From: a virus
UHGV virus genome: UHGV-0127207
Reading direction: 5' to 3' (one strand)
Length of the DNA stretch: 24,457 nt
The notes under the pieces: generated by a model
Database searches by the model: none
What the model was told of the DNA's origin: nothing
Seen by the model: only the letters and a program-made list of their open reading frames with translations
Program-made: the position numbers and the translations under genes
Shown: in pieces, positions 10,075-24,143 of the stretch
How positions within the stretch are numbered: the stretch's first letter is position 1
Layout: every line of letters begins with the position of its first letter

Positions 10075-11841
10075 ATGAACACCACACTGACACCCGCAGA
10101 TCTCGATCCCCGTCGGCAGGCCATGCTGCTGTACTTTCAGGGATACCGCGTCGCCCGCATTGCTGAAATGCTGGGCGAGAAAGTTGCAACCGTTCACAGC
10201 TGGAAAAAACGCGACAAGTGGGGTGACTATGGGCCGCTGGATCAGATGCAGCTCACCACCGCCGCACGCTACTGCCAGCTCATTATGAAGGAGCACAAAG
10301 AAGGGAAAGATTTCAAAGAGATTGACCTGCTGGCGCGCCAGTCTGAGCGCCACGCGCGGATCGGCAAGTTTAACAATGGCGGTAACGAAGCCGACTTAAA
10401 CCCTAACGTCGCCAACCGCAACAAAGGCCCGCGCCGTCAGCCGGAAAAGAACGTTTTCACCGATGAACAAATTGAGAAGCTGGAAGAAATCTTCCACTCC
10501 TCCATGTTCAACTACCAGCGCCACTGGTGGGAAGCCGGAAAAACCAACCGCATCCGCAACCTGCTGAAGTCACGCCAGATCGGCGCGACCTTTTACTTTG
10601 CCCGTGAAGCCCTGATTGACGCCCTGCTGACCGGACGTAACCAGATTTTCCTTTCCGCCAGTAAGGCACAGGCCCACGTCTTTAAGCAGTACATCATCGA
10701 CTTCGCCAAAGAAGTGGAGGTGGAGCTGAAAGGCGATCCGATGGTGCTTCCTAACGGGGCCACGCTTTACTTCCTCGGCACCAATGCCCGCACAGCCCAG
10801 AGTTATCACGGTAACCTGTATCTGGATGAATATTTCTGGATACCGAAATTCCAGGAGCTGCGCAAAGTGGCTTCCGGTATGGCTATTCACAAAAAATGGC
10901 GACAAACCTATTTTTCCACGCCATCCAGCCTGACCCACAGTGCTTATCCGTTCTGGTCCGGTGCGCTGTTCAACCGTGGACGCAACAAAGCCGACAAGGT
11001 GGACATCGACCTGTCCCACAGCAATCTGGCCCCCGGCCTGCTGTGCGCAGACGGGCAGTACCGCCAGATAGTCACTGTGGAAGATGCGGTGCGCGGCGGC
11101 TGCAACTTGTTCGACCTCGACCAGTTACGCATGGAATACAGCCCGGATGAATACCAGAACCTGCTGATGTGTGAGTTCGTGGACGATCTCGCGTCCGTGT
11201 TCCCGCTCAGCGAGCTGCAGGGGTGCATGGTGGACAGCTGGGAAGTCTGGACCGACTTTCATGCACTGGCGCTGCGCCCGTTTGGCTGGCGCGAAGTGTG
11301 GATCGGTTATGACCCGGCAAAAGGTACGCAAAACGGCGACAGCGCCGGGTGCGTGGTGGTGGCACCGCCAGCCGTGCCGGGCGGTAAGTTCCGCATTCTT
11401 GAGCGTCACCAGTGGCGCGGAATGGACTTCCGCGCCCAGGCTGACGCCATCAAAAAACTGACCGAACAGTACAACGTGACCTACATCGGCATCGACTCAA
11501 CCGGCGTCGGTCACGGGGTTTACGAGAACGTGAAAGCGTTCTTTCCTGCCGTCCGGGAGTTTGTCTATAACCCCAACGTTAAAAACGCCCTGGTACTCAA
11601 GGCCTACGACATTATCAGCCACCGCCGTCTGGAGTTTGACGCCGGGCACACCGACATTGCGCAGTCATTTATGGCAATCCGTCGCGCCACCACCGCCAGC
11701 GGCAACCGCCCGACCTATGAAGCCAGCCGCAGCGAAGAAGCCAGCCATGCCGATCTGGCCTGGGCAACAATGCACGCACTGTTTAACGAACCGCTGCAGG
11801 GCGAGTCCGCCAATACCAGCAATATTGTGGAGATTTTTTGA
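10075..11841 (+). CDS. P: Terminase large (ATPase) subunit gpP
   Basis: 588 aa (MNTTLTPADLDPRRQAMLLYFQGYRVARIAEMLGEKVATVHSWKKRDKWGDYG...), P2 gpP-like; followed by and overlapping Q. Confidence 0.9.
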   Translation: MNTTLTPADLDPRRQAMLLYFQGYRVARIAEMLGEKVATVHSWKKRDKWGDYGPLDQMQLTTAARYCQLIMKEHKEGKDFKEIDLLARQSERHARIGKFNNGGNEADLNPNVANRNKGPRRQPEKNVFTDEQIEKLEEIFHSSMFNYQRHWWEAGKTNRIRNLLKSRQIGATFYFAREALIDALLTGRNQIFLSASKAQAHVFKQYIIDFAKEVEVELKGDPMVLPNGATLYFLGTNARTAQSYHGNLYLDEYFWIPKFQELRKVASGMAIHKKWRQTYFSTPSSLTHSAYPFWSGALFNRGRNKADKVDIDLSHSNLAPGLLCADGQYRQIVTVEDAVRGGCNLFDLDQLRMEYSPDEYQNLLMCEFVDDLASVFPLSELQGCMVDSWEVWTDFHALALRPFGWREVWIGYDPAKGTQNGDSAGCVVVAPPAVPGGKFRILERHQWRGMDFRAQADAIKKLTEQYNVTYIGIDSTGVGHGVYENVKAFFPAVREFVYNPNVKNALVLKAYDIISHRRLEFDAGHTDIAQSFMAIRRATTASGNRPTYEASRSEEASHADLAWATMHALFNEPLQGESANTSNIVEIF

Positions 11842-12875
11842 TGGGAAAGAGTAAGAAGAACCGCGCTGCGGCGACGAAACAGATCCAGCATAAAAACCAG
11901 ACTTCAGCCGAAGCATTCAGCTTCGGCGATCCCGTTCCGGTTCTGGACCGCCGTGAACTACTGGACTATGTGGAATGCGTACAGACAGATCGCTGGTATG
12001 AGCCGCCAGTGAGTTTTGACGGACTGGCGCGAACCTTCCGCGCTGCCGTACATCATAGCTCCCCGATTGCAGTAAAGTGCAACATTCTGACCAGTACCTA
12101 CATCCCTCACCCGCTGCTCAGCCAGCAGGCTTTTTCACGTTTTGTGCAGGACTATCTGGTATTTGGTAACGCCTATCTGGAGAAACGCACGAACCGCTTC
12201 GGTGAGGTTATCGCCCTTGAGCCTGCTCTGGCAAAATACACCCGACGCGGGTTAGACCTGGATACCTACTGGTTTGTGCAATACGGTATGACAACCCAGC
12301 CGTATCAGTTCACGAAAGGCAGCATTTTTCATCTGATGGAACCGGATATTAATCAGGAGATCTACGGCCTGCCCGGCTATCTTTCTGCCATTCCGTCAGC
12401 CCTGCTCAACGAATCCGCCACGCTGTTCCGCCGCAAGTATTACATTAACGGTAGTCATGCAGGCTTCATCATGTACATGACCGATGCCGCGCAGAACCAG
12501 GAGGATGTGAACAACCTCCGCAAGGCAATGAAAAGTGCTAAAGGACCGGGCAACTTCCGCAACCTGTTTATGTACTCGCCTAACGGCAAAAAAGACGGCC
12601 TTCAGATCATTCCTCTGTCAGAAGTCGCGGCGAAGGATGAGTTTTTGAATATCAAAAATGTTAGTCGCGATGACATGATGGCGGCACACCGCGTGCCGCC
12701 GCAGATGATGGGGATTATGCCTAATAATGTTGGGGGATTTGGGGATGTTGAGAAGGCGGCGCGTGTTTTCGTACGCAACGAACTTACACCACTCCAAGGC
12801 CGCGTGATAGAAATTAACGAGTGGCTGGATGATGAAGTGATTCGCTTTAACCCATACCTGACTGAGGAAGATTAA
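11838..12875 (+). CDS. Q: Portal (capsid vertex) protein gpQ
   Basis: 345 aa; start overlaps P stop; P2 gpQ-like length and position. Confidence 0.9.
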   Translation: MMGKSKKNRAAATKQIQHKNQTSAEAFSFGDPVPVLDRRELLDYVECVQTDRWYEPPVSFDGLARTFRAAVHHSSPIAVKCNILTSTYIPHPLLSQQAFSRFVQDYLVFGNAYLEKRTNRFGEVIALEPALAKYTRRGLDLDTYWFVQYGMTTQPYQFTKGSIFHLMEPDINQEIYGLPGYLSAIPSALLNESATLFRRKYYINGSHAGFIMYMTDAAQNQEDVNNLRKAMKSAKGPGNFRNLFMYSPNGKKDGLQIIPLSEVAAKDEFLNIKNVSRDDMMAAHRVPPQMMGIMPNNVGGFGDVEKAARVFVRNELTPLQGRVIEINEWLDDEVIRFNPYLTEED

Positions 12876-12961: not shown

Positions 12962-12982
12962 AAAACGCTCCTAAGAGCGTTT
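12962..12982. terminator. Candidate bidirectional hairpin terminator between convergent Q and the accessory operon
   Basis: AAACGCTC-CTAA-GAGCGTTT inverted repeat with T-rich stretches on both strands; the stop codon of the 239-aa gene lies in the loop. Confidence 0.35.
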
Positions 12983-13690
12983 CTGTTTACGGTTTGACTC
13001 TATTTGTTTTTTTAGCTGGATAAGCCTTTCAACTAACTCAAACACTTTTGTACTTGGATTATCAGTATCGCTAGCTTCAGCAGCCTGTAAACTTCTCTTA
13101 GCCCTAAGGACTACTTCATTTAAATCTTTTGACTCTAAAGCGTTTAGGGTTTTCTGAAAAATCCCTTTTGAGCCTTTCTCATAGTCCTTAATATATTTTC
13201 TTAACTCATTTACAATTTGATTTCCTGAACTATTACCAGGTAAATTTCTAAATGCCTTTGTCGAATAGGTATAATGTAGAAGTAACCAATATTCAAAACA
13301 AGGTACTGAATTCACAGTAAACCAAGTTGAGCTTGGTTTACTTCTCCTGATAGCGTCAAGCGCTGCCATGTAATCAGAGTGGGCATCCTTATCAATCACT
13401 ACAAAGATTTGATCATAAGGAGCCCCCTGTTCAGTCATTTTTTTATGCTGTGCTTTTGCATGACGAACAACACACATAGGACTAGAGCCACATTCTCCAG
13501 TTACATCAATTACACTTGCTGTAAGTAATTCAAAATGATTTATCAAATCCTCAAAGTAATTTGGTTCAGTTTTTTTACCCTCACAAACAATTAATATTTT
13601 AGCGAGAGGGGATTTTATTGCATTACGTCTTGCTAGATCCTTAGCCGTTTTAGGGGCACGTTTCTTTTTGAATAAATCCTCGCTTCCCAT
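12971..13690 (-). CDS. TOPRIM-like protein (RloB/AbiLii-type or DUF4435/AriB-type), second gene of a candidate anti-phage pair
   Basis: 239 aa; N-terminal ILIVCEGKKTEPNYF and downstream VVIDKDAHSD consistent with a TOPRIM E...DxD core; A+T-rich; starts 1 nt after the upstream ATPase gene stops. Confidence 0.6.
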   Translation of the reverse strand: MGSEDLFKKKRAPKTAKDLARRNAIKSPLAKILIVCEGKKTEPNYFEDLINHFELLTASVIDVTGECGSSPMCVVRHAKAQHKKMTEQGAPYDQIFVVIDKDAHSDYMAALDAIRRSKPSSTWFTVNSVPCFEYWLLLHYTYSTKAFRNLPGNSSGNQIVNELRKYIKDYEKGSKGIFQKTLNALESKDLNEVVLRAKRSLQAAEASDTDNPSTKVFELVERLIQLKKQIESNRKQKRS

Positions 13691-13691
13691 A

Positions 13692-14957
13692 TCAAATCCC
13701 CGTCAATTTCTTGATGAACGGCAATGCTCCATACCGACCGTCTAGGTATGCGGCTTCTAAATTTTCTCTTCCTTTCCTTGGACTAAAATCAGTCAATGGA
13801 TATAGATTAGTTTCACTGAGTTCATTTTTCTCACAAAACCAAACTTGATCACGTCTAAAAATGCTTTGATTCAGAATGGATGTTTCATGTGTTGAGAAAA
13901 TTAACTGCGCACCTTTTTTATTAGTAACCGGACTATTAAAAAGATTTACCAAGAAACTAACCAACTTTGGATGCAATGTATCGTGAAGCTCGTCGATTAA
14001 TAGTACATATCCATTATCGAGCGCATCTAACCATGGACCAGCTAAAGAAAAAAGCTTTTGAGTGCCATGAGATTCCTCTTCAAGAGAAAAACTTACCGGC
14101 TCACCTTTATCGTTATAATGGACAGTAGTAACATCAAAAACTTCTTTATCCTTCATATTAGAAATAACGATTTTTTTGATATCATCTGGCATATCAGATG
14201 GCAAATCATCTGGATTAAATTTTTCTTTCTTAACTAAAACATCATCAATGCCAATATCTGCAGCTTGCAAAAAATTCAAGATATCTTTCTTCATATCCTC
14301 GGTGCAGCGTTTAGCGGAGAATGTATTAGCCCATCCATTAATTCCAGAAAGTCTCAGTGTTTTTTTAAACCAAGTAAAAACAGGCTTAAGCTGCTCGCTA
14401 TTTAATTGAACAGCTGTAGACAAGAACAGGGCATTATTTCTAGTTGAACGCTGCCAAACTTGTTTTTCACCAAGTAGTGATGCGCCAAAATCCCAATCAT
14501 ATTCCTGCTTCTCTTCATCCCAAGCTCTGAAATACCACTTTTGAGGCCTTCCTTTTGGGTACGCAAAGAGCCATTCATCAATAATTCTTTCATTTGTAGC
14601 AGAAAAACCAAATTGATACCGGGTGCCCTCTGCAATAAAAGTAACTTCAAATTCAGTAGGTTTTTTAATTGAATCTGAATCAAGCTTGAAGGGGAATACG
14701 GGAACCTCTTCACCAGCCTGAGAGTTAGATGCAGAGTGGATAACTAAATCCATCATAGCCCTGACAGCCAGAAGTACATTCGACTTGCCCGCTGCATTCG
14801 CACCGTAAATAACAGCTGACTTTAGAACATTAAGGTTAACGTTTCCCTCTACTGTAAAGATATTCTCTTTTAACTCGTTACTTTTGTTAGCAATAAGTGA
14901 AAGTGTTTGTTTGTTTTTGATTGAGAGATAGTTCTCAACATTGAATTCAATAAGCAT
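13692..14957 (-). CDS. ABC/SMC-like P-loop ATPase (AAA_15/AAA_21-type), first gene of a candidate anti-phage pair
   Basis: 421 aa; Walker A GANAAGKSN, Walker B VLLIDELHD, H-loop-like FSTHET; strong RBS AGGAGGG before the ATG; A+T-rich. Confidence 0.7.
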   Translation of the reverse strand: MLIEFNVENYLSIKNKQTLSLIANKSNELKENIFTVEGNVNLNVLKSAVIYGANAAGKSNVLLAVRAMMDLVIHSASNSQAGEEVPVFPFKLDSDSIKKPTEFEVTFIAEGTRYQFGFSATNERIIDEWLFAYPKGRPQKWYFRAWDEEKQEYDWDFGASLLGEKQVWQRSTRNNALFLSTAVQLNSEQLKPVFTWFKKTLRLSGINGWANTFSAKRCTEDMKKDILNFLQAADIGIDDVLVKKEKFNPDDLPSDMPDDIKKIVISNMKDKEVFDVTTVHYNDKGEPVSFSLEEESHGTQKLFSLAGPWLDALDNGYVLLIDELHDTLHPKLVSFLVNLFNSPVTNKKGAQLIFSTHETSILNQSIFRRDQVWFCEKNELSETNLYPLTDFSPRKGRENLEAAYLDGRYGALPFIKKLTGI

Positions 14958-15533: not shown

Positions 15534-15869
15534 ATGAACAATATTCCCCCTATACCACAGTTAGGAATTTATGTCTCAAAAATCGATCCCACCCTACGTA
15601 TCACTGTAACCGATGTTGATATTGTTGATGGTGAGGATGATTCTCCTGATGATGAGTTGTTTTATTTAGTCCACTGGATCGAGGGGGAAGATGAAAGTGA
15701 TATGACAGCAATGGGATTTGAGCTAGACCCAGTAGAGTGGCAGGCTTTCGTTGAATCTGAGCAATTAGTGTTTGAGCGTGATCCGTACATGGATTCAATC
15801 CCCGAAAATTCAAACTTGGCAAAGATTCGGGATTTTCTCATGAAGACTAAACAGAATGATCATTCGTAA
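15534..15869 (+). CDS. Small strongly acidic protein of unknown function (candidate DNA-mimic / anti-restriction)
   Basis: 111 aa; strong RBS AAAAGGAG before the ATG; about 26 Asp/Glu against about 7 Lys/Arg by hand count, including runs DGEDDSPDDE and EGEDESD; A+T-rich; opposite strand to flanking genes. Confidence 0.6.
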   Translation: MNNIPPIPQLGIYVSKIDPTLRITVTDVDIVDGEDDSPDDELFYLVHWIEGEDESDMTAMGFELDPVEWQAFVESEQLVFERDPYMDSIPENSNLAKIRDFLMKTKQNDHS

Positions 15870-16061
15870 GTGTAAGCATCCATCAGGAAAATGGTTTTGT
15901 AAGTGAATCATCAACTTTTAGAGAGTCTCAGACACTCCCACTTCTGCTTCTGACACAAAGCGGACGATCACTTATCAAAATAACCGCCCACCTTACGCCT
16001 TATTTCACTCATTGCCCAAACTAGCCCCCATCAGAATGAATCCTCCTGGGGGCAACGTTTC

Positions 16062-16295
16062 TTAATGCAGCCAGCTGTCGTCCTCCCACACCTTCTGCAT
16101 AATTTTCATCACTTGTTTTCTTTCTTCATCCAGTTGCAGTCCGGTTAGTTCCACACCGTTAGAGCTACCTTTGCGAATGCGAATTACCGTTTTGGGATAC
16201 AGGGGGCGCAGATTGCGGTAAAGCTCGGATTCAAGGGCGTCCAGGGTAGACTGGCTAATCTTCTGCTCTTTATCGATCATTATTTCAATGCGCAT
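16062..16295 (-). CDS. dinI: DinI-family protein (DNA damage-inducible protein I homologue)
   Basis: ORF 16062..16367; ATG at 16295 preceded by GAGGTGA gives 77 aa MRIEIMIDKEQKISQSTLDALESELYRNLRPLYPKTVIRIRKGSSNGVELTGLQLDEERKQVMKIMQKVWEDDSWLH, alignable to E. coli DinI (MRIEVTIAK...ELSRR...ETWESADDWF). Confidence 0.8.
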   Translation of the reverse strand: MRIEIMIDKEQKISQSTLDALESELYRNLRPLYPKTVIRIRKGSSNGVELTGLQLDEERKQVMKIMQKVWEDDSWLH

Positions 16296-16305
16296 AAAAG
16301 TCACC

Positions 16306-16494
16306 TCAGCTGATGACATCCATTGAGCGGTTGTATTCGTGGCTTCTGATTTTTGCCATGAGTTCATCAGTCAATTCAGAAACCCACTGCAGAGCCAGCC
16401 CCTTCTCTTCATCACTACACTCACTAGCCGCTACAAGCTTAAGAAAAAAATCAATGCGCTGGAGCTTCAAAGACTCCAAAAAATAGTCCTGCAT
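16306..16494 (-). CDS. Small SOS-controlled protein, candidate antirepressor (Tum-like role)
   Basis: 62 aa; strong RBS AGGAGG; first gene after the LexA box and directly upstream of dinI; functional assignment is inference from context only. Confidence 0.45.
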   Translation of the reverse strand: MQDYFLESLKLQRIDFFLKLVAASECSDEEKGLALQWVSELTDELMAKIRSHEYNRSMDVIS

Positions 16495-16521
16495 CTTTCC
16501 TCCTATGACACCACAACAATA

Positions 16522-16552
16522 CTGTATATATAACCACTGTTTATATTTACAG
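16522..16552. promoter_or_regulatory. LexA operator (SOS box) with overlapping degenerate second box, in the promoter of the small ORF-dinI operon
   Basis: CTGTTTATATTTACAG at 16537-16552 fits CTGT-N8-ACAG; overlapping CTGTATATATAACCAC at 16522-16537 is a partial box; about 45 bp upstream of the 62-aa ORF start; TTTACA -35-like hexamer further upstream on the minus strand. Confidence 0.7.
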
Positions 16553-16646
16553 TATATAATAATCTTACTGATGTAAAACGTTTTTTTACGTTCATCGGCC
16601 TGATATGCCTGGTATTATTAAGAGCACGAATTGTTAACCCGCGTAA

Positions 16647-19061
16647 TTAATACAGGTTCCGCCACTTATCATCTTCCTTCAGACGCTGGTTCCGATAGAA
16701 GATACGCAGGCCTGCTCCTGACGGAATACTGCCGCCGCGAAGGAGCAAATCGACTTCTTTCTCGCTGCCATCAAATCCCCTGGACTTCAGTTCATAGACG
16801 AGCTGCTGTCGCTGATGGTCTGTAATTCGCTGTTTGTAGTCTTTACGCCGTTTCGGTTTCACCTGGCGTAACCTTGCAGCCAGTTCCCGGCGCTCTTTTT
16901 TGCTCATACTGTGCAGGTAATCGTGCAACTCCTTGTCATTCATACGGGTAATATCCGTTCTGGAGTCCCCATCAGCTGATTTGTCTTTCCCTTGTTGGTT
17001 TAAATTTTCAGCAAGGGGACAGTTATTGCCACGAGTCCAAGGGGCGCAAGCGCCCTGGTCGGCTACCGCCTCCTGAACGTCAACGGCCTTACGAACCATT
17101 TTCCACTTCACTGCATGAGTGCAGATCTTGCCCTCTGCAATGGGTGACCAGATGCCATAAATACGAATGCCGTGATCGCCATAGGCGGTCGGCTCTTCGT
17201 TGATTTCATAAGCGGTTCTGATAAGGTGATATTTACGGGGAACCAGTACGCCGCCCTGCTTCATGATGTAGGTGGCAAAACAACCAGCATCAGCAGCAGC
17301 CAGGATGGCATCAAGGCGCGGGTCATCCAGTATCGGCGCACCTGCTTTTTTGTCACCCTGTTGCCTTGCCGCCTGACCAGCCAGCAAGCGAAGTTCACGG
17401 TAAGCCTGACGTCCCGGAATACCAAAGAAGCGGAACTGCTGAACACGATGCAGAGACGCCCAGGCATTAACGTATTCGGCGTTATCACGCAGGGATTTAC
17501 CCGTTTCCTTGCTGATCTCGCCAGCCAGACCACGCCCGTCAATGTTCTTACTGATGTATTTCGCGATATAGCTTGTCGGTGTTCCTTTGCGCGGGTTAAT
17601 CAGCTCAGACTTAAAGCGTGGCCCCGTGTTGTTGCCCAGCTCCTCGCGGTCTACACGGATGGCAAACTTACGCAGTAATGCAGTGATGGCGCGGCGGTCT
17701 TTTTTACGCATGAAGCACATGAGATGCCAGTGCACAGTACCGTCATGGTGCGGCTCAGCCACCCGCACGCCATACCAGCGCAACCCGGTTTTGTGCATTG
17801 CCTTACGAAATGCAGCAAACATGCCGACCATATAATCGCTGCTTTGTCTTACCGTCGCATTTGTCCAGGTCGGGTTGGGTCTGCCGTTGTTGAGCGTGGA
17901 ATGGAAACGTGACGGACAGGTGATAGTGTAGAAAACGGCGCAGTCACCGCGCATTTCCGCGATAAGCTCCAGACCTTTAACACAGGCCATCATCTCATTG
18001 CGGCGATGCGCAGGGTTGCTGCTGCTGGCGTTTACCACATCCTCCATGTCCAGCGTGTCGCCGTCTTCGTTCACCAGTTCATGAGAACGGAAAAACTCCA
18101 GCGACTTACGGCGCTGCTCACGTTTATGCATCACGGCTTCATAGCTGACATAGGGAGATGCTTTTTTGCTGACCAGGCAGACAGCACGCAACTGCTCTTC
18201 CCGCCATTCGCAACGCATCTTCCATAATTTCCGATACCACCAGTCGGCGCACAACATACGCGCCAGCGAACCCGGAATGAGTTCATAGGGCACGGGTTTA
18301 CGGCGGTTTCTTTTCCGACGGAGTTGCTCAAACGCAGGTGGGATGACATCCAGACGCAGGGTTTCCGCCGCCACCTTTTCCCATGTCTTGCGGATTTCTT
18401 CTGGCTTAACGTCATCGGTGGCATACAAATCGCCACAAGCTGCCTCAAGGCACATGCTCATATGCGCAGCTACCAGGGTGGACAGGCGTTTCACCTGATC
18501 CTGACTCATTTCAGGCAGGATCAGCAGGCCCTCCAGCCCTTGATGGCTTGCCATAAAACGGAAAGAAGCAGACAGCTGACTGTCACGTACACAATCCAGT
18601 CGCTCCAGACATGGCTTAATCGTCTCACGCAAATAGCGGGAATAAGCCTTTGGCCTGCCCAGGCTGCTGAAGTATTCGATACGTTGCATCAGCGGCTTGC
18701 TGATATGGATGGGCTGGGCGCTGACGTCCGCCAGAATGACCATGTCCGGGTTAAAACGCTGCTGTTCATGCGCTAGCTTTGCCCGGCTAATGAGCTTATC
18801 CTGCTCCATTTCGCGCTGGACAGGATCACGAGATTCATTAAAGAAATAACGCTCCCAGACCTGCTCACTCAGTGCATCGCGGCACAGCTGTTCCTGCTCA
18901 TTATCGGCAGCGTACAGAGTGATCAGGTTTAAAAGTGCAGACTCCGGAGCAACTTCCGCCGGGTCCAGATAAGGGTTAATGGCCTTTTTCGGGCCGTTCC
19001 ATGAAAATGCTGCAGCGGCCTCGTTAAAGCCGCTAGAGTTGCTCATATCGTCATGACTCAT
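16647..19061 (-). CDS. A: Replication initiation protein gpA (rolling-circle nicking endonuclease)
   Basis: 804 aa; P2/186 gpA-like by size and position at the end of the early operon; start overlaps dam stop. Confidence 0.85.
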
Positions 19062-22125: not shown

Positions 22126-22695
22126 GTGGATTTCAATAGCGGCGGTAAGAAAGCCATAGAACGTTTAGTTGAAGCATATGGGTTCGGTACCCGTCAGGCT
22201 CTCTGTGATCATTTAGGTGTTTCTAAGAGCACCATGGCAACGCGCTATATGCGTGATATTTTTCCAGCAGATTGGGTAATCCAGTGCGCCCTTGAAACGG
22301 GCACCTCGCTTAATTGGCTAACAACAGGGCATGGTTCAAAGCAAGCATCAGCAAATACAAATACTATAGAAGTAGAAAAATATTTATTGTCTGATGGAGC
22401 ATTGCAGAAAGACGGTTTTTATATTTTTGATAAGGGATTTCTACCCTCTACGTTTAAAAAACCTTTTGTCATCACAGATAACAATTCTGAATTTATTTGT
22501 GATAAAGAATTTGATGATATACGTGATGGTAAATGGGTAATAAGTATTGATGGCGAAATAACGATCCGTGACATTACTCGTTTACCCGGTGGAAGAATCT
22601 TCGTCGAGGGTGGAAACAGAGCCTTCGAATGCAAGATAGAAGACATTGAAATAATTGGTAAAATTATAAGTTTAACAGTCAAGTATGTTAAATAG
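22126..22695 (+). CDS. cI: CI immunity repressor (186-type, N-terminal HTH)
   Basis: ORF 22039..22695; GTG at 22126 preceded by GGAGGA gives about 189 aa; HTH region GTRQALCDHLGVSKSTMATRYMRD; start uncertain (SD spacing short). Confidence 0.75.
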   Translation: MDFNSGGKKAIERLVEAYGFGTRQALCDHLGVSKSTMATRYMRDIFPADWVIQCALETGTSLNWLTTGHGSKQASANTNTIEVEKYLLSDGALQKDGFYIFDKGFLPSTFKKPFVITDNNSEFICDKEFDDIRDGKWVISIDGEITIRDITRLPGGRIFVEGGNRAFECKIEDIEIIGKIISLTVKYVK

Positions 22696-22710: not shown

Positions 22711-22902
22711 ATGCTTGGTAAGGTATTTTTTGTGGTTTTGTCATGTTCTTTGTTATTAAACCCACTAACTACCTATGCTAGAAATTATCCCTGCTCAGGG
22801 AAAAAGGGAGGTGTTTCTCACTGTACCTCAGATGGCAAATTCGTTTGCAATGATGGAACTATTAGTAAATCCAAAAAAATCTGTACTAAAAACTCACGAT
22901 AA
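22711..22902 (+). CDS. Small secreted cysteine-rich protein (moron in the cI-int operon)
   Basis: 63 aa; strong RBS GGGAGGAAACT-ATG; N-terminal signal peptide [23 protein letters not shown]; mature part basic with four Cys; A+T-rich. Confidence 0.55.
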
Positions 22903-23090
22903 CTTTTGCTTTTATATCTGCGTCTAAAATAAAAATGAGCCGCAGGTTAACCGCAAAAGTTACATGCTCACATAGCAAAAAGAATAGCCAACTTCATGAT
23001 GGCTTCAGTGAGATGTATGGTCGTAGGATTTCATACATTGACACTGGTTATACATACAGTAAAAATGCTCTCTACTGGAGGGCATTTTTT

Positions 23091-24143
23091 ATGGCAGTAC
23101 GAAAACTCACCACAGGGAAATGGCTTTGCGAATGTTACCCCGCCGGACGTAGTGGGCGTCGTGTGCGTAAACAATTCGCCACCAAAGGCGAAGCTCTGGC
23201 TTTTGAGCGCCACACGATGGAAGAAACCGAAGCAAAGCCCTGGCTGGGTGAATCAGTGGATCGTCGAACACTGAAAGACGTAGTTGAGCTATGGTTCAAA
23301 CTACATGGTAAATCTCTGACAGCTGGGCAGCATGTCTATGACAAATTGCTGTTGATGGTTGACGCTCTGGGTAATCCTCTTGCAACCGATCTCACCTCTA
23401 AAATGTTTGCCCACTATCGAGATAAACGCCTGACAGGCGAGATCTACTTCAGCGAGAAATGGAAGAAAGGAGCAAGCCCGGTCACCATTAACCTGGAGCA
23501 AAGCTATCTAAGTAGTGTTTTTAGCGAACTATCCCGTCTGGGCGAATGGTCGTATCCGAACCCACTGGAGAACATGCGAAAATTCACCATCGCAGAAAAA
23601 GAGATGGCATGGCTTACCCATGAGCAGATTGTTGAATTGCTGGCTGATTGCAAACGTCAGGACCCAATTCTGGCACTGGTAGTTAAGATATGCTTAAGCA
23701 CAGGCGCACGCTGGCGTGAAGCCGTAAATCTTACCCGCTCACAGGTGACCAAATACCGAATTACCTTTGTCAGAACGAAGGGGAAGAAAAACAGAAGCAT
23801 CCCTATCAGTAAAGAGCTTTACGAAGAGATCATGGCGCTTGATGGGTTCAATTTCTTTACAGACTACTATTTTCAATTTTTATCCGTGATGGAAAAAACG
23901 TCTATCGTGCTCCCTCGCGGTCAACTCACACACGTTCTGCGCCATACGTTTGCGGCGCACTTCATGATGTCGGGTGGAAACATTCTCGCCTTACAAAAAA
24001 TTCTCGGACACCACGATATAAAAATGACTATGCGTTACGCACATCTGGCACCAGATCATCTGGAAACGGCGCTCCGTTTCAATCCTCTGGCAACGCTGCC
24101 AAGTGGCGACAAAGTGGCGGCAGCGGTTGGCATTACCCCGTAA
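23091..24143 (+). CDS. int: Tyrosine integrase (P2/186 family)
   Basis: ORF 22935..24143; ATG at 23091 (MAVRKLTTGKWLCECYPAGR...) taken as start; C-terminal catalytic region HVLRHTFAAHFMMSGGNILALQKILGHHDIKMTMRYAHLAPDHL with catalytic Tyr in MRYAHL. Confidence 0.9.
   Translation: MAVRKLTTGKWLCECYPAGRSGRRVRKQFATKGEALAFERHTMEETEAKPWLGESVDRRTLKDVVELWFKLHGKSLTAGQHVYDKLLLMVDALGNPLATDLTSKMFAHYRDKRLTGEIYFSEKWKKGASPVTINLEQSYLSSVFSELSRLGEWSYPNPLENMRKFTIAEKEMAWLTHEQIVELLADCKRQDPILALVVKICLSTGARWREAVNLTRSQVTKYRITFVRTKGKKNRSIPISKELYEEIMALDGFNFFTDYYFQFLSVMEKTSIVLPRGQLTHVLRHTFAAHFMMSGGNILALQKILGHHDIKMTMRYAHLAPDHLETALRFNPLATLPSGDKVAAAVGITP

What the first reader, a model, noticed from the sequence alone, without database searches (positions are those of the whole stretch)
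16062..16552. LexA-box promoter driving a small ORF plus a DinI homologue: SOS-wired module suggesting 186-type inducibility
CTGTTTATATTTACAG, overlapping a second degenerate box, lies about 45 bp upstream of a 62-aa ORF that is followed by a DinI-family gene whose RBS overlaps its end. In 186-type P2 relatives the SOS-controlled operon after gene A encodes the Tum antirepressor, and in Gifsy-type prophages LexA-controlled antirepressors sit in operons with dinI homologues. The 62-aa protein may therefore be an antirepressor acting on the CI at 22126-22695. Together with the 186-type CII this argues that the prophage is SOS-inducible, unlike P2 itself.
Basis: partly seen in the sequence, partly recalled or inferred. 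Interest (0 to 1): 0.6.

Follow-up and report, generated by a model that had tools for sequence, protein, structure and literature searches.

The report
SOS-controlled Tum antirepressor operon of prophage
This is the known DNA-damage switch of Fels-2/186-type P2-like prophages: a LexA-repressed promoter drives a small antirepressor (TumA) and a DinI-like protein, and an identical gene in E. coli HS has already been shown to be needed for induction, so it is ordinary.

Summary
On the minus strand, just after replication gene A, two overlapping LexA boxes (16520-16554) cover the -10 of a promoter. It drives a 62-aa ORF (16306-16494) and a tightly linked 77-aa DinI-family gene (16062-16295).

- The module is about 97% identical to Fels-2 (STM2728/STM2726.1).
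- It has the split tumA/tumB layout annotated in phage PsP3.
- The 62-aa family profile matches residues 3-44 of the 186 Tum antirepressor (hhalign 94.9%, E 4.5e-8).
- The protein is 100% identical to E. coli HS ECHS_RS04495. A 2025 paper calls that gene tum and shows that its deletion, or lexA(Ind-), abolishes mitomycin C induction of prophage DuoHS.
- The module occurs in 1125 of 5426 complete E. coli genomes.

Three smaller points seem less documented.
- The operator is a double box at a 15-bp offset.
- One near-invariant TumA travels with CI repressors whose N-terminal domains are conserved but whose C-terminal domains are not.
- A second conserved LexA-box promoter, followed by a hairpin, sits in front of int (23038-23090).

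Interest is low.

The parts
16572..16577 (-). -35 hexamer TTTACA of the tum promoter
   Evidence: Read from the sequence. It is invariant in Fels-2, SopEPhi, SEN8, Klebsiella ST437phi4.1 and Yersinia MLG42 while the flanks diverge. The spacer to TACTGT is 17 nt, the same layout as the annotated 186 p95 promoter.
16549..16554 (-). -10 hexamer TACTGT, which is also the first half-site of LexA box 1
   Evidence: Sequence. By analogy with 186 p95, whose annotated -10 is also TACTGT inside the LexA site. The generic promoter scan missed it because TACTGT matches TATAAT at only 3 of 6 positions.
16535..16554 (-). LexA box 1, TACTGTAAATATAAACAGTG (promoter-proximal, strong)
Evidence: PWM 22.97 bits, above every one of 200 shuffles. 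It is conserved in relatives.
16520..16539 (-). LexA box 2, CAGTGGTTATATATACAGTA (GTG in place of CTG), offset 15 bp from box 1
   Evidence: PWM 17.56 bits. The same double arrangement is present in 20 of 33 species-level loci and in E. coli HS with one substitution.
16499..16503 (-). Shine-Dalgarno GGAGG of the 62-aa ORF
   Evidence: Sequence. Conserved in alignment A1.
16306..16494 (-). tumA-type gene: 62-aa predicted antirepressor (coordinates include the stop codon)
   Evidence: phrog_698 E 5.9e-38. hhalign to 186 Tum residues 3-44, E 4.5e-8. 100% identical to ECHS_RS04495, the 'tum' of PMC12055606. AlphaFold2 model is a two-helix hairpin, pLDDT 88.
16301..16308 (-). tumA stop codon TGA overlapping the ribosome-binding site GAGGTGA of the DinI-like gene
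   Evidence: Sequence. The stop, ribosome-binding site and ATG spacing is conserved in six relatives. The local hairpin is not conserved (z -0.98).
16062..16295 (-). tumB / DinI-family gene, 77 aa (coordinates include the stop codon)
   Evidence: Pfam DinI 6.6e-23. phrog_189 1.5e-29, aligned to profile positions 71-148. 41% identical to 186 Tum residues 71-145. PDB 1GHH DinI E 2.7e-6.
16024..16053 (-). GC-rich hairpin after the DinI-like gene, the probable end of the operon (weak U tract)
   Evidence: RNA fold -20.4 kcal/mol, z -2.44. The next ORF, 15534-15869, is on the other strand.
22126..22695 (+). cI, a 186-type immunity repressor and the presumed target of TumA
   Evidence: Pfam Phage_CI_repr 3.3e-31 plus Phage_CI_C 4.7e-29; the Peptidase_S24 hit is below cut-off. 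33% identical to 186 CI. 87% identical to E. coli HS DuoHS CI.
23038..23090 (+). Possible second SOS node: promoter TTGACA-17-AAAAAT with a LexA-like box (23042-23061) in its spacer, then a hairpin with a U run that contains the int ribosome-binding site. The int ATG is at 23091.
   Evidence: PWM 23.25, the best site in the window. Promoter scan. Hairpin -17.5 kcal/mol, z -4.84. Box and hairpin are conserved, with a compensatory stem variant, across 29 leader variants. Its function is inferred only.

Best explanation
This is the SOS operon of a Fels-2/186-type P2-like prophage, in its split tumA-tumB form.

In a lysogen, two LexA dimers are expected to occupy the overlapping boxes. The boxes cover the -10 hexamer (TACTGT) and the start region of the promoter just downstream of gene A, so the operon is off.

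DNA damage activates RecA and LexA cleaves itself. The promoter then fires and two proteins are made from one transcript.
1. The 62-aa helical-hairpin protein TumA is homologous to the N-terminal part of 186 Tum. It binds the 186-type CI repressor (22126-22695) and stops it holding the lytic promoter, so the prophage is induced without CI cleavage.
2. The 77-aa DinI-like protein TumB corresponds to the C-terminal half of 186 Tum. It presumably acts on RecA filaments to tune the SOS signal and is dispensable for the switch itself.

Shown here: the sequence features, the homology and the conservation. Shown elsewhere, for an identical protein: the requirement for tum and for cleavable LexA. Inferred: LexA occupancy of both boxes, direct TumA-CI binding, and the role of TumB.
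For: Location and identity:
- The module sits after gene A (Pfam Phage_GPA 1.5e-126), as tum does in 186.
- It is 97% identical in DNA to Fels-2 STM2728/STM2726.1.
- PsP3 annotates the same pair as tumA ('UV induction of prophage') and tumB.

Homology to Tum:
- The profile of 28 diverse relatives matches 186 Tum residues 3-44 (hhalign 94.9%, E 4.5e-8).
- The 186 Tum N-terminus hits phrog_698 at 5.7e-6. The window ORF hits the PsP3 TumA family phrog_1993 at 0.002 and phrog_8554 at 1.1e-8.
- The DinI-like part is 41% identical to Tum residues 71-145.

Operator:
- PWM scores are 22.97 and 17.56 bits.
- In 33 species-level loci across Enterobacterales, 32 have a LexA box within 100 bp upstream of the ORF. 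Twenty of those are double boxes.
- A DinI-like gene follows in only 20 of the 33, so the small ORF plus the LexA box is the constant core.

Genetics from the literature:
- ECHS_RS04495 is 100% identical and its promoter is 97% identical.
- Deleting it, or using lexA(Ind-), abolishes mitomycin C induction of DuoHS (PMC12055606).
- Fels-2 makes a lexA null lethal, and in PSP3 the upstream half is reported to be the antirepressor (PMC3121763; PMC12626290).
Against: - No direct test of LexA binding or of TumA-CI binding exists for this allele.
- BLASTP finds no pairwise similarity to 186 Tum or PsP3 TumA. The homology rests on profiles.
- This CI differs from the E. coli HS CI at 13% of residues, mostly in the N-terminal domain. 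Its sensitivity to TumA is therefore extrapolated.
- The published start-to-stop deletion of tum could also lower expression of the tightly linked DinI-like gene.
- The LexA matrix was built from sites I recalled from memory.
Confidence: 0.9

Rival explanations
1. The module is a genuine Tum operon, but in this prophage it no longer triggers induction. Either this CI variant is not recognised by the near-invariant TumA, or the prophage is defective elsewhere. The locus would then be SOS-regulated but inert as a switch.
For: TumA is 85-100% identical across phages whose CI proteins are only 38-58% identical overall. The CI here differs from the tested HS CI mainly in its N-terminal domain. The window covers only part of the prophage.
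Against: The CI N-terminal domain stays 69-82% identical in all phages that carry this TumA type, including the recognition-helix region. The regulatory genes cI, apl/cox, cII, A and int are intact ORFs with strong family matches. This CI type is present in hundreds of E. coli genomes.
Confidence: 0.07
2. The DinI-like protein is the real effector, through RecA, and the 62-aa ORF is an accessory or leader peptide.
For: DinI-family proteins bind RecA filaments. The published tum deletion might be polar on the tightly linked downstream gene.
Against: - CI has no credible S24 self-cleavage domain (16.1 bits against a cut-off of 23.3), so RecA modulation alone would not inactivate it.
- 13 of 33 loci, and phages ESSI-2 and ESSI2_ev015, keep the LexA box and the small ORF but have no DinI-like gene.
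- In PSP3 the upstream gene is reported to be the antirepressor, and dinI deletions in Gifsy prophages had no effect on induction (PMC3121763).
- The small ORF is homologous to the Tum half that is not DinI-like.
Confidence: 0.03
3. The LexA-like boxes are chance AT-rich palindromes in an ordinary promoter, and the operon is not under SOS control.
For: CTG-N10-CAG is not over-represented in the window (11 found, 6.8 expected). The region is AT-rich.
Against: Both boxes score within the range of genuine sites, and box 1 exceeds all 200 shuffles. The CTG/CAG positions are kept in 32 of 33 diverged loci while the inner bases vary. A near-identical promoter belongs to a prophage that lexA(Ind-) renders non-inducible.
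Confidence: 0.01

Closest known systems
tum (ECHS_RS04495) plus the DinI-like gene ECHS_RS04500 of E. coli HS prophage DuoHS (PMC12055606)
   Same: The 62-aa protein is 100% identical. The promoter with its double LexA box is 97% identical. Gene order is the same: A, tum, dinI-like. The int leader is the same. Genetic evidence shows that tum and cleavable LexA are required for mitomycin C induction.
   Different: CI is 87% identical, with the differences concentrated in the N-terminal domain. The cargo between the DinI-like gene and the portal gene differs: an AbiL pair here, other hypothetical genes in HS.
Salmonella prophage Fels-2, STM2728 plus STM2726.1
   Same: About 97% DNA identity across the promoter and both genes. 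The protein is 96.8% identical. The double LexA box is shared. The literature describes a tum region split by a stop codon and Fels-2-dependent lethality of a lexA null (PMC3121763; PMC12626290).
   Different: Fels-2 CI is only 38.6% identical overall: N-terminal domain 69%, C-terminal domain 27%. In Fels-2, int abuts cI with no LexA-box leader. A gene follows its DinI-like gene on the same strand; no such gene follows here.
Phage PsP3 tumA / tumB
   Same: Split architecture after gene A with a LexA box over the promoter. TumB is closely similar to the DinI-like protein here.
   Different: PsP3 has a single LexA box. Its TumA is only a remote relative (hhalign E 0.0039 in the same register; a different PHROG). 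PsP3 CI carries a duplicated N-terminal domain.
Coliphage 186 Tum (146 aa) and its p95 promoter
   Same: Same position and the same logic: a LexA-repressed promoter whose -10 is TACTGT. The N-terminal 44 residues are homologous to the 62-aa ORF. The C-terminal half is DinI-like. 186 also makes a separate 76-aa DinI-like product from an internal start.
   Different: In 186 the two halves are fused in one reading frame. 186 has a single LexA box. orf97 follows in the 186 operon and is absent here.
Gifsy-1/2/3 LexA-controlled dinI-antirepressor operons (GfoA, GftA; PMC3121763)
   Same: A small antirepressor co-transcribed with a dinI homologue from a LexA-controlled promoter. The repressor is not cleaved.
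   Different: The gene order is reversed, with dinI first. These are lambdoid phages with different repressors. Sequence relatedness of GfoA/GftA to this ORF was not tested.
Colicin-type double SOS operator (for example colE1 cea), recalled from memory
   Same: Two LexA boxes overlapping at a 15-bp offset, with a weaker GTG-type second box. The recalled colE1 sequence TGCTGTATATAAAACCAGTGGTTATATGTACAGTA aligns without gaps to the site here (one search scores both).
   Different: Here it controls a phage antirepressor, not a colicin. Cooperative LexA binding and delayed induction are inferred, not tested.

Membership tests
186 Tum / PsP3 TumA-type LexA-controlled antirepressor | Sequence homology to the N-terminal, non-DinI part of 186 Tum | tested here: met
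   hhalign of family profile A3 against 186 Tum: 94.9%, E 4.5e-8, residues 3-44 to 3-44. PHROG cross-hits in the same register. Pairwise BLASTP is negative.
186 Tum / PsP3 TumA-type LexA-controlled antirepressor | Gene lies immediately downstream of replication gene A, on the same strand, in a P2-like genome with 186-type cI, apl and cII | tested here: met
   Gene A is at 16647-19061 on the minus strand. CI, CII (CP76) and a Cox/Apl-like protein were identified. The order matches 186, PsP3 and Fels-2.
186 Tum / PsP3 TumA-type LexA-controlled antirepressor | LexA operator overlapping the promoter | tested here: met
   In silico only. PWM 22.97 and 17.56 bits over the -10 and start region. Conserved in 32 of 33 loci. 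LexA binding itself cannot be tested with these tools.
186 Tum / PsP3 TumA-type LexA-controlled antirepressor | Required for SOS induction of the prophage | not testable with these tools
   Literature only, for a 100% identical protein. A tum deletion and lexA(Ind-) block mitomycin C induction of DuoHS (PMC12055606).
186 Tum / PsP3 TumA-type LexA-controlled antirepressor | Binds CI and prevents operator binding without cleaving it | not testable with these tools
   Known for 186 Tum (Shearwin et al. 1998, as cited in PMC3121763). Indirect hint here: the TumA type tracks the CI N-terminal domain. CI lacks a credible S24 domain.
DinI family (PF06183) | Match to the family profile above the curated cut-off and to solved DinI | tested here: met
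   Pfam 81.3 bits against a cut-off of 24.2. PDB 1GHH E 2.7e-6 over residues 1-75, including the acidic C-terminal helix ending in WED-DSW.
DinI family (PF06183) | Binds RecA filaments and modulates co-protease activity | not testable with these tools
The role is inferred from the family.
Double overlapping SOS operator (colicin type) | Two LexA boxes at a 15-bp offset, sharing one base of their 16-bp cores | tested here: met
   Boxes at 16535-16554 and 16520-16539. The same geometry is present in 20 of 33 relatives.
Double overlapping SOS operator (colicin type) | Cooperative binding of two LexA dimers, giving tight repression and late induction | not testable with these tools
   Would need gel shifts or footprints and induction kinetics.
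Gifsy-type antirepressors (GfoA/GftA) | Sequence relatedness to GfoA/GftA, and the order dinI first, antirepressor second | tested here: not met
   The gene order here is antirepressor first, DinI-like second, against dinI first in Gifsy (PMC3121763). Sequence relatedness was not tested. The mechanism is analogous but this is not a member.

The most novel reading that the evidence does not exclude
The SOS wiring may have two prongs and may cross immunity types.

1. One almost invariant TumA allele may inactivate a whole series of CI repressors with very different C-terminal domains, by binding their conserved N-terminal DNA-binding domain. SOS in a cell with several such prophages would then induce different Fels-2-like prophages through a shared antirepressor.
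2. Excision may be gated separately. A LexA-repressed promoter is buried in a terminator-like hairpin just upstream of int. Read-through from cI would be terminated or have its ribosome-binding site masked. The SOS-induced transcript would start inside the hairpin and be translated.
Probability: 0.3. Interest if true: 0.45.

Novelty: already known. Interest (0 to 1): 0.15.

Why it matters
It confirms that this very common E. coli prophage type is SOS-inducible through an antirepressor rather than through repressor cleavage. That bears on antibiotic-triggered phage release and on gene transfer. The module is in about one fifth of complete E. coli genomes.

The practical gain is for annotation. 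RefSeq calls the 62-aa gene 'hypothetical protein', and PHROGs lists its family (phrog_698) as 'unknown function'. The literature and the profile evidence here both identify it as the Tum antirepressor.

The side observations are small but testable extensions of a known circuit:
- the double operator;
- TumA tracking the CI N-terminal domain;
- the LexA-box leader in front of int.

Tried and rejected
- Pfam gives nothing for the 62-aa ORF.
- BLASTP against 186 Tum and PsP3 TumA finds nothing. Profiles were needed.
- PDB sequence search with the family profile finds nothing at E up to 10.
- Foldseek of the AlphaFold2 model against PDB gives only generic helical hairpins, none at E <= 0.001.
- PADLOC gives no hit for the ORF.
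- Rfam finds no family anywhere in the window.
- The generic sigma-70 scan finds no promoter at the tum site, because the -10 is TACTGT.
- A hairpin that would mask the ribosome-binding site of the DinI-like gene (flagged as terminator-like) was rejected: z -0.98, and not conserved in relatives.
- The search for related loci with the family alignment failed because no stretch was conserved enough. The single protein was used instead.
- Bunny et al. 2002, the primary Fels-2/lexA paper, is not held. It is cited second-hand.
- The 80 IMG/VR Int loci were all at least 99% identical in protein, so they test the int leader only through variation in the leader itself.
- The occasional database label 'levan regulatory protein' has no support.

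Full report
**What is there.** The finding lies on the minus strand, directly after replication gene A (16647-19061; Pfam Phage_GPA 1.5e-126). Read 5' to 3' on that strand, the elements are:
- TTTACA (16577-16572);
- a 17-nt spacer;
- TACTGT (16554-16549), which opens the 35-nt sequence TACTGTAAATATAAACAGTGGTTATATATACAGTA;
- GGAGG (16503-16499);
- the ATG of a 62-aa ORF (16494-16306);
- its TGA stop, which overlaps the GAGGTGA ribosome-binding site of the next gene;
- the ATG (16295) of a 77-aa DinI-family gene (16295-16062; Pfam DinI 6.6e-23; PDB 1GHH E 2.7e-6);
- a GC-rich hairpin (16053-16024; -20.4 kcal/mol, z -2.44).

The next ORF, 15534-15869, is on the other strand, so this is a two-gene operon.

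The loose pattern CTG-N10-CAG is not enriched in the window (11 found, 6.8 expected).
- I built a position weight matrix from 28 E. coli LexA sites that I recalled from memory (the Lewis 1994 and Fernandez de Henestrosa 2000 sets; basis: my own knowledge).
- It scores the two 20-mers at 22.97 bits (16535-16554) and 17.56 bits (16520-16539).
- The training sites span 12.5-27.2 bits. The best score in 200 shuffled windows was 17.81.
- The boxes are offset by 15 bp. As far as I recall, that is the geometry of colicin operators, and the recalled colE1 operator aligns to this site without gaps.
- Box 1 coincides with the -10 hexamer, as in the annotated 186 p95 promoter, whose -10 is also TACTGT inside the LexA site.

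**Conservation.**
- In Fels-2, SopEPhi, SEN8, a Klebsiella phage and a Yersinia phage, the -35 and both boxes are kept while the flanks diverge. ESSI-2, ESSI2_ev015, 186 and PsP3 have a single box at the same place.
- In 33 species-level genomic loci encoding relatives of the ORF, 32 have a LexA box within 100 bp upstream. These loci come from Escherichia, Citrobacter, Enterobacter, Klebsiella, Serratia, Pantoea, Erwinia, Tatumella and others.
- Of those 33 loci, 20 have the double box at a 15-bp offset, 11 have a single box, one is cut by a contig end, and one has none.
- A DinI-like gene follows in only 20 of the 33. It is also absent in ESSI-2 and ESSI2_ev015.
- The constant unit is therefore the LexA box plus the small ORF. 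The DinI-like gene is an optional passenger.

**What the 62-aa ORF is.**
- Pfam has nothing for it.
- PHROGs places it in phrog_698, 'unknown function' (5.9e-38).
- BLASTP finds no similarity to 186 Tum or to PsP3 TumA.
- Profiles do link them. The first 69 residues of 186 Tum hit phrog_698 at 5.7e-6, in register 6-44. The window ORF hits phrog_1993, the family of PsP3 TumA, at 0.002, and phrog_8554 at 1.1e-8. Tum also hits phrog_8554, at 3.3e-12.
- An exhaustive search of 1.84 billion representative proteins gave 67 relatives. A 28-sequence alignment of the diverse ones shows the motif LQRI-L-ARLVA---CS--DKELAL-W--EL.
- Compared with 186 Tum by hhalign, that profile gives 94.9% probability, E 4.5e-8, residues 3-44 to 3-44. 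PsP3 TumA aligns in the same register at E 0.0039.
- The AlphaFold2 model is a two-helix hairpin (helices 2-23 and 28-61, pLDDT 88). It has no informative structural neighbours.
- The DinI-like protein is 41% identical to Tum residues 71-145.
- The two genes together therefore equal a 186 Tum split at the domain boundary.

**This is already described.**
- The region is 97% identical to Fels-2, where the genes are STM2728 ('hypothetical') and STM2726.1 ('DinI family, similar to PsP3 TumB').
- PsP3 annotates tumA ('similar to 5' end 186 tum; UV induction of prophage') and tumB.
- Lemire et al. 2011 (PMC3121763) make three relevant statements. Tum looks like an antirepressor fused to DinI. Fels-2 and PSP3 have the tum region split in two by a stop codon (citing Bunny et al. 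2002). In PSP3 the upstream gene carries the antirepressor activity (personal communication cited there).
- PMC12626290 summarises Bunny et al.: all lexA-null survivors had lost Fels-2.
- The most direct evidence is from E. coli HS. The 62-aa protein is 100% identical to ECHS_RS04495, with a 97% identical promoter. The supplement of PMC12055606 names ECHS_RS04495 as 'tum'. An in-frame deletion of it, or lexA(Ind-), abolishes mitomycin C-induced lysis and virion formation of prophage DuoHS, while the host SOS reporter still responds in the tum mutant.
- The module occurs in 1125 of 5426 complete E. coli genomes, where RefSeq calls the gene 'hypothetical protein'.

**The target.**
- CI (22126-22695) has the 186-type N-terminal helix-turn-helix domain and C-terminal domain, and no credible S24 domain.
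- It is 33% identical to 186 CI and 87% identical to the HS CI, with the differences mostly in the N-terminal domain.
- TumA is 85-98% identical in phages whose CI proteins are only 38-58% identical to this one.
- Splitting CI into domains explains part of this. Among seven such phages the N-terminal domains are 70% identical on average (minimum 58%). The C-terminal domains are 34% identical on average.
- Across ten phages, TumA identity tracks CI N-terminal identity (Spearman 0.95) but not C-terminal identity (0.45).
- These comparisons are not phylogenetically independent, so this is a lead and not proof. It fits the published statement that Tum prevents CI from binding its operator, and it suggests that the N-terminal domain is the contact surface.

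**Mechanism, with status.**
- Shown here: the anatomy, the homology to Tum and to DinI, and the conservation of the operator.
- Shown in the literature for an identical protein: the requirement for tum and for cleavable LexA.
- Inferred: two LexA dimers bind cooperatively; TumA binds the CI N-terminal domain; the DinI-like protein tunes RecA activity and is not essential. In Gifsy prophages, dinI deletions had no effect on induction.
- The hairpin near the junction that could mask the ribosome-binding site of the DinI-like gene is neither significant nor conserved, so I dropped it.

**Seen in passing: a possible second SOS node.**
- The best LexA-like site in the window is not at tum. It is at 23042-23061 (23.25 bits).
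- It lies in the spacer of TTGACA-17-AAAAAT, about 30 bp before the true int start at 23091.
- Between the box and the ATG is a strong hairpin followed by a U run (-17.5 kcal/mol, z -4.84). Its 3' arm holds the ribosome-binding site.
- Among 80 viral contigs with this Int type there are 29 leader variants. All keep ACATTGA and the CTG/CAG positions while the inner bases of the box vary. The stem occurs in two sequence versions plus a compensatory variant.
- The region further upstream is of 39 different kinds. E. coli HS has the same leader.
- Fels-2, 186 and PsP3 have a different Int type (57% identity or less) that lacks this leader. In Fels-2 and 186, int abuts cI; PsP3 has an extra gene between cI and int.
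- A plausible reading: the hairpin blocks int expression from cI read-through, and the LexA-controlled promoter starts transcription inside the hairpin. This is untested, and one literature search found no description of it.

**Verdict.** The feature is an already known system: the split Tum SOS operon of Fels-2-type P2-like prophages. Interest is low. What remains of value is correcting the 'hypothetical protein' annotation, plus the three modest leads above.

Noticed in passing
window 23038-23093 (+): The strongest LexA-like box in the window (CACTGGTTATACATACAGTA, 23042-23061) sits in the spacer of a TTGACA-17-AAAAAT promoter about 30 bp upstream of int. It is followed by a hairpin with a U run (z -4.84) that contains the int ribosome-binding site. 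Box, -35 and hairpin are conserved across 29 leader variants, including a compensatory stem change, and in E. coli HS. This may be an SOS-gated int promoter embedded in a terminator.
   Followed up: partly
window 22126-22695 (+) versus CI genes of L014-L021, L003, L004: Phages carrying near-identical TumA (85-98% identity) have CI repressors whose N-terminal DNA-binding domains are 58-82% identical but whose C-terminal domains are only 23-42% identical. TumA identity correlates with CI N-terminal identity (Spearman 0.95, n=10, not phylogenetically corrected). This hints that TumA contacts the N-terminal domain.
   Followed up: partly
window 12971-14957 (-): An abortive-infection pair lies in the variable region between portal gene Q (11838-12875) and the tum operon: AbiLi (421 aa, PADLOC 1.1e-100; Pfam AAA_21) and AbiLii (239 aa, PADLOC 1.6e-29; Pfam RloB). 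Relatives carry different cargo at this position.
   Followed up: partly
window 22711-22902 (+): A 63-aa ORF with a signal-peptide-like N-terminus is inserted between cI and int. Some RefSeq records call it 'YdcA family protein'. It has no Pfam or PADLOC match. It separates int from the cI transcript, unlike in 186 and Fels-2 where the two genes abut.
   Followed up: no
window 15534-15869 (+): A 111-aa acidic ORF lies on the opposite strand just beyond the tum operon terminator. It matches phrog_17127 (2e-70, unknown function), with no Pfam or PADLOC match.
   Followed up: no
L008 (ESSI2_ev015) 560-813; L009 (ESSI-2) 560-800; loci L045-L052: Some P2-like phages and prophages (ESSI-2 group, Pantoea, Erwinia, Tatumella) keep a single LexA box and a TumA-like ORF with no DinI-like gene downstream. 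The antirepressor can therefore stand alone.
   Followed up: partly
L004 1219-2079 (-), PsP3 cI: PsP3 CI (286 aa) contains two tandem copies of the N-terminal helix-turn-helix domain before the C-terminal domain, unlike the single-domain CI of 186, Fels-2 and this window.
   Followed up: no
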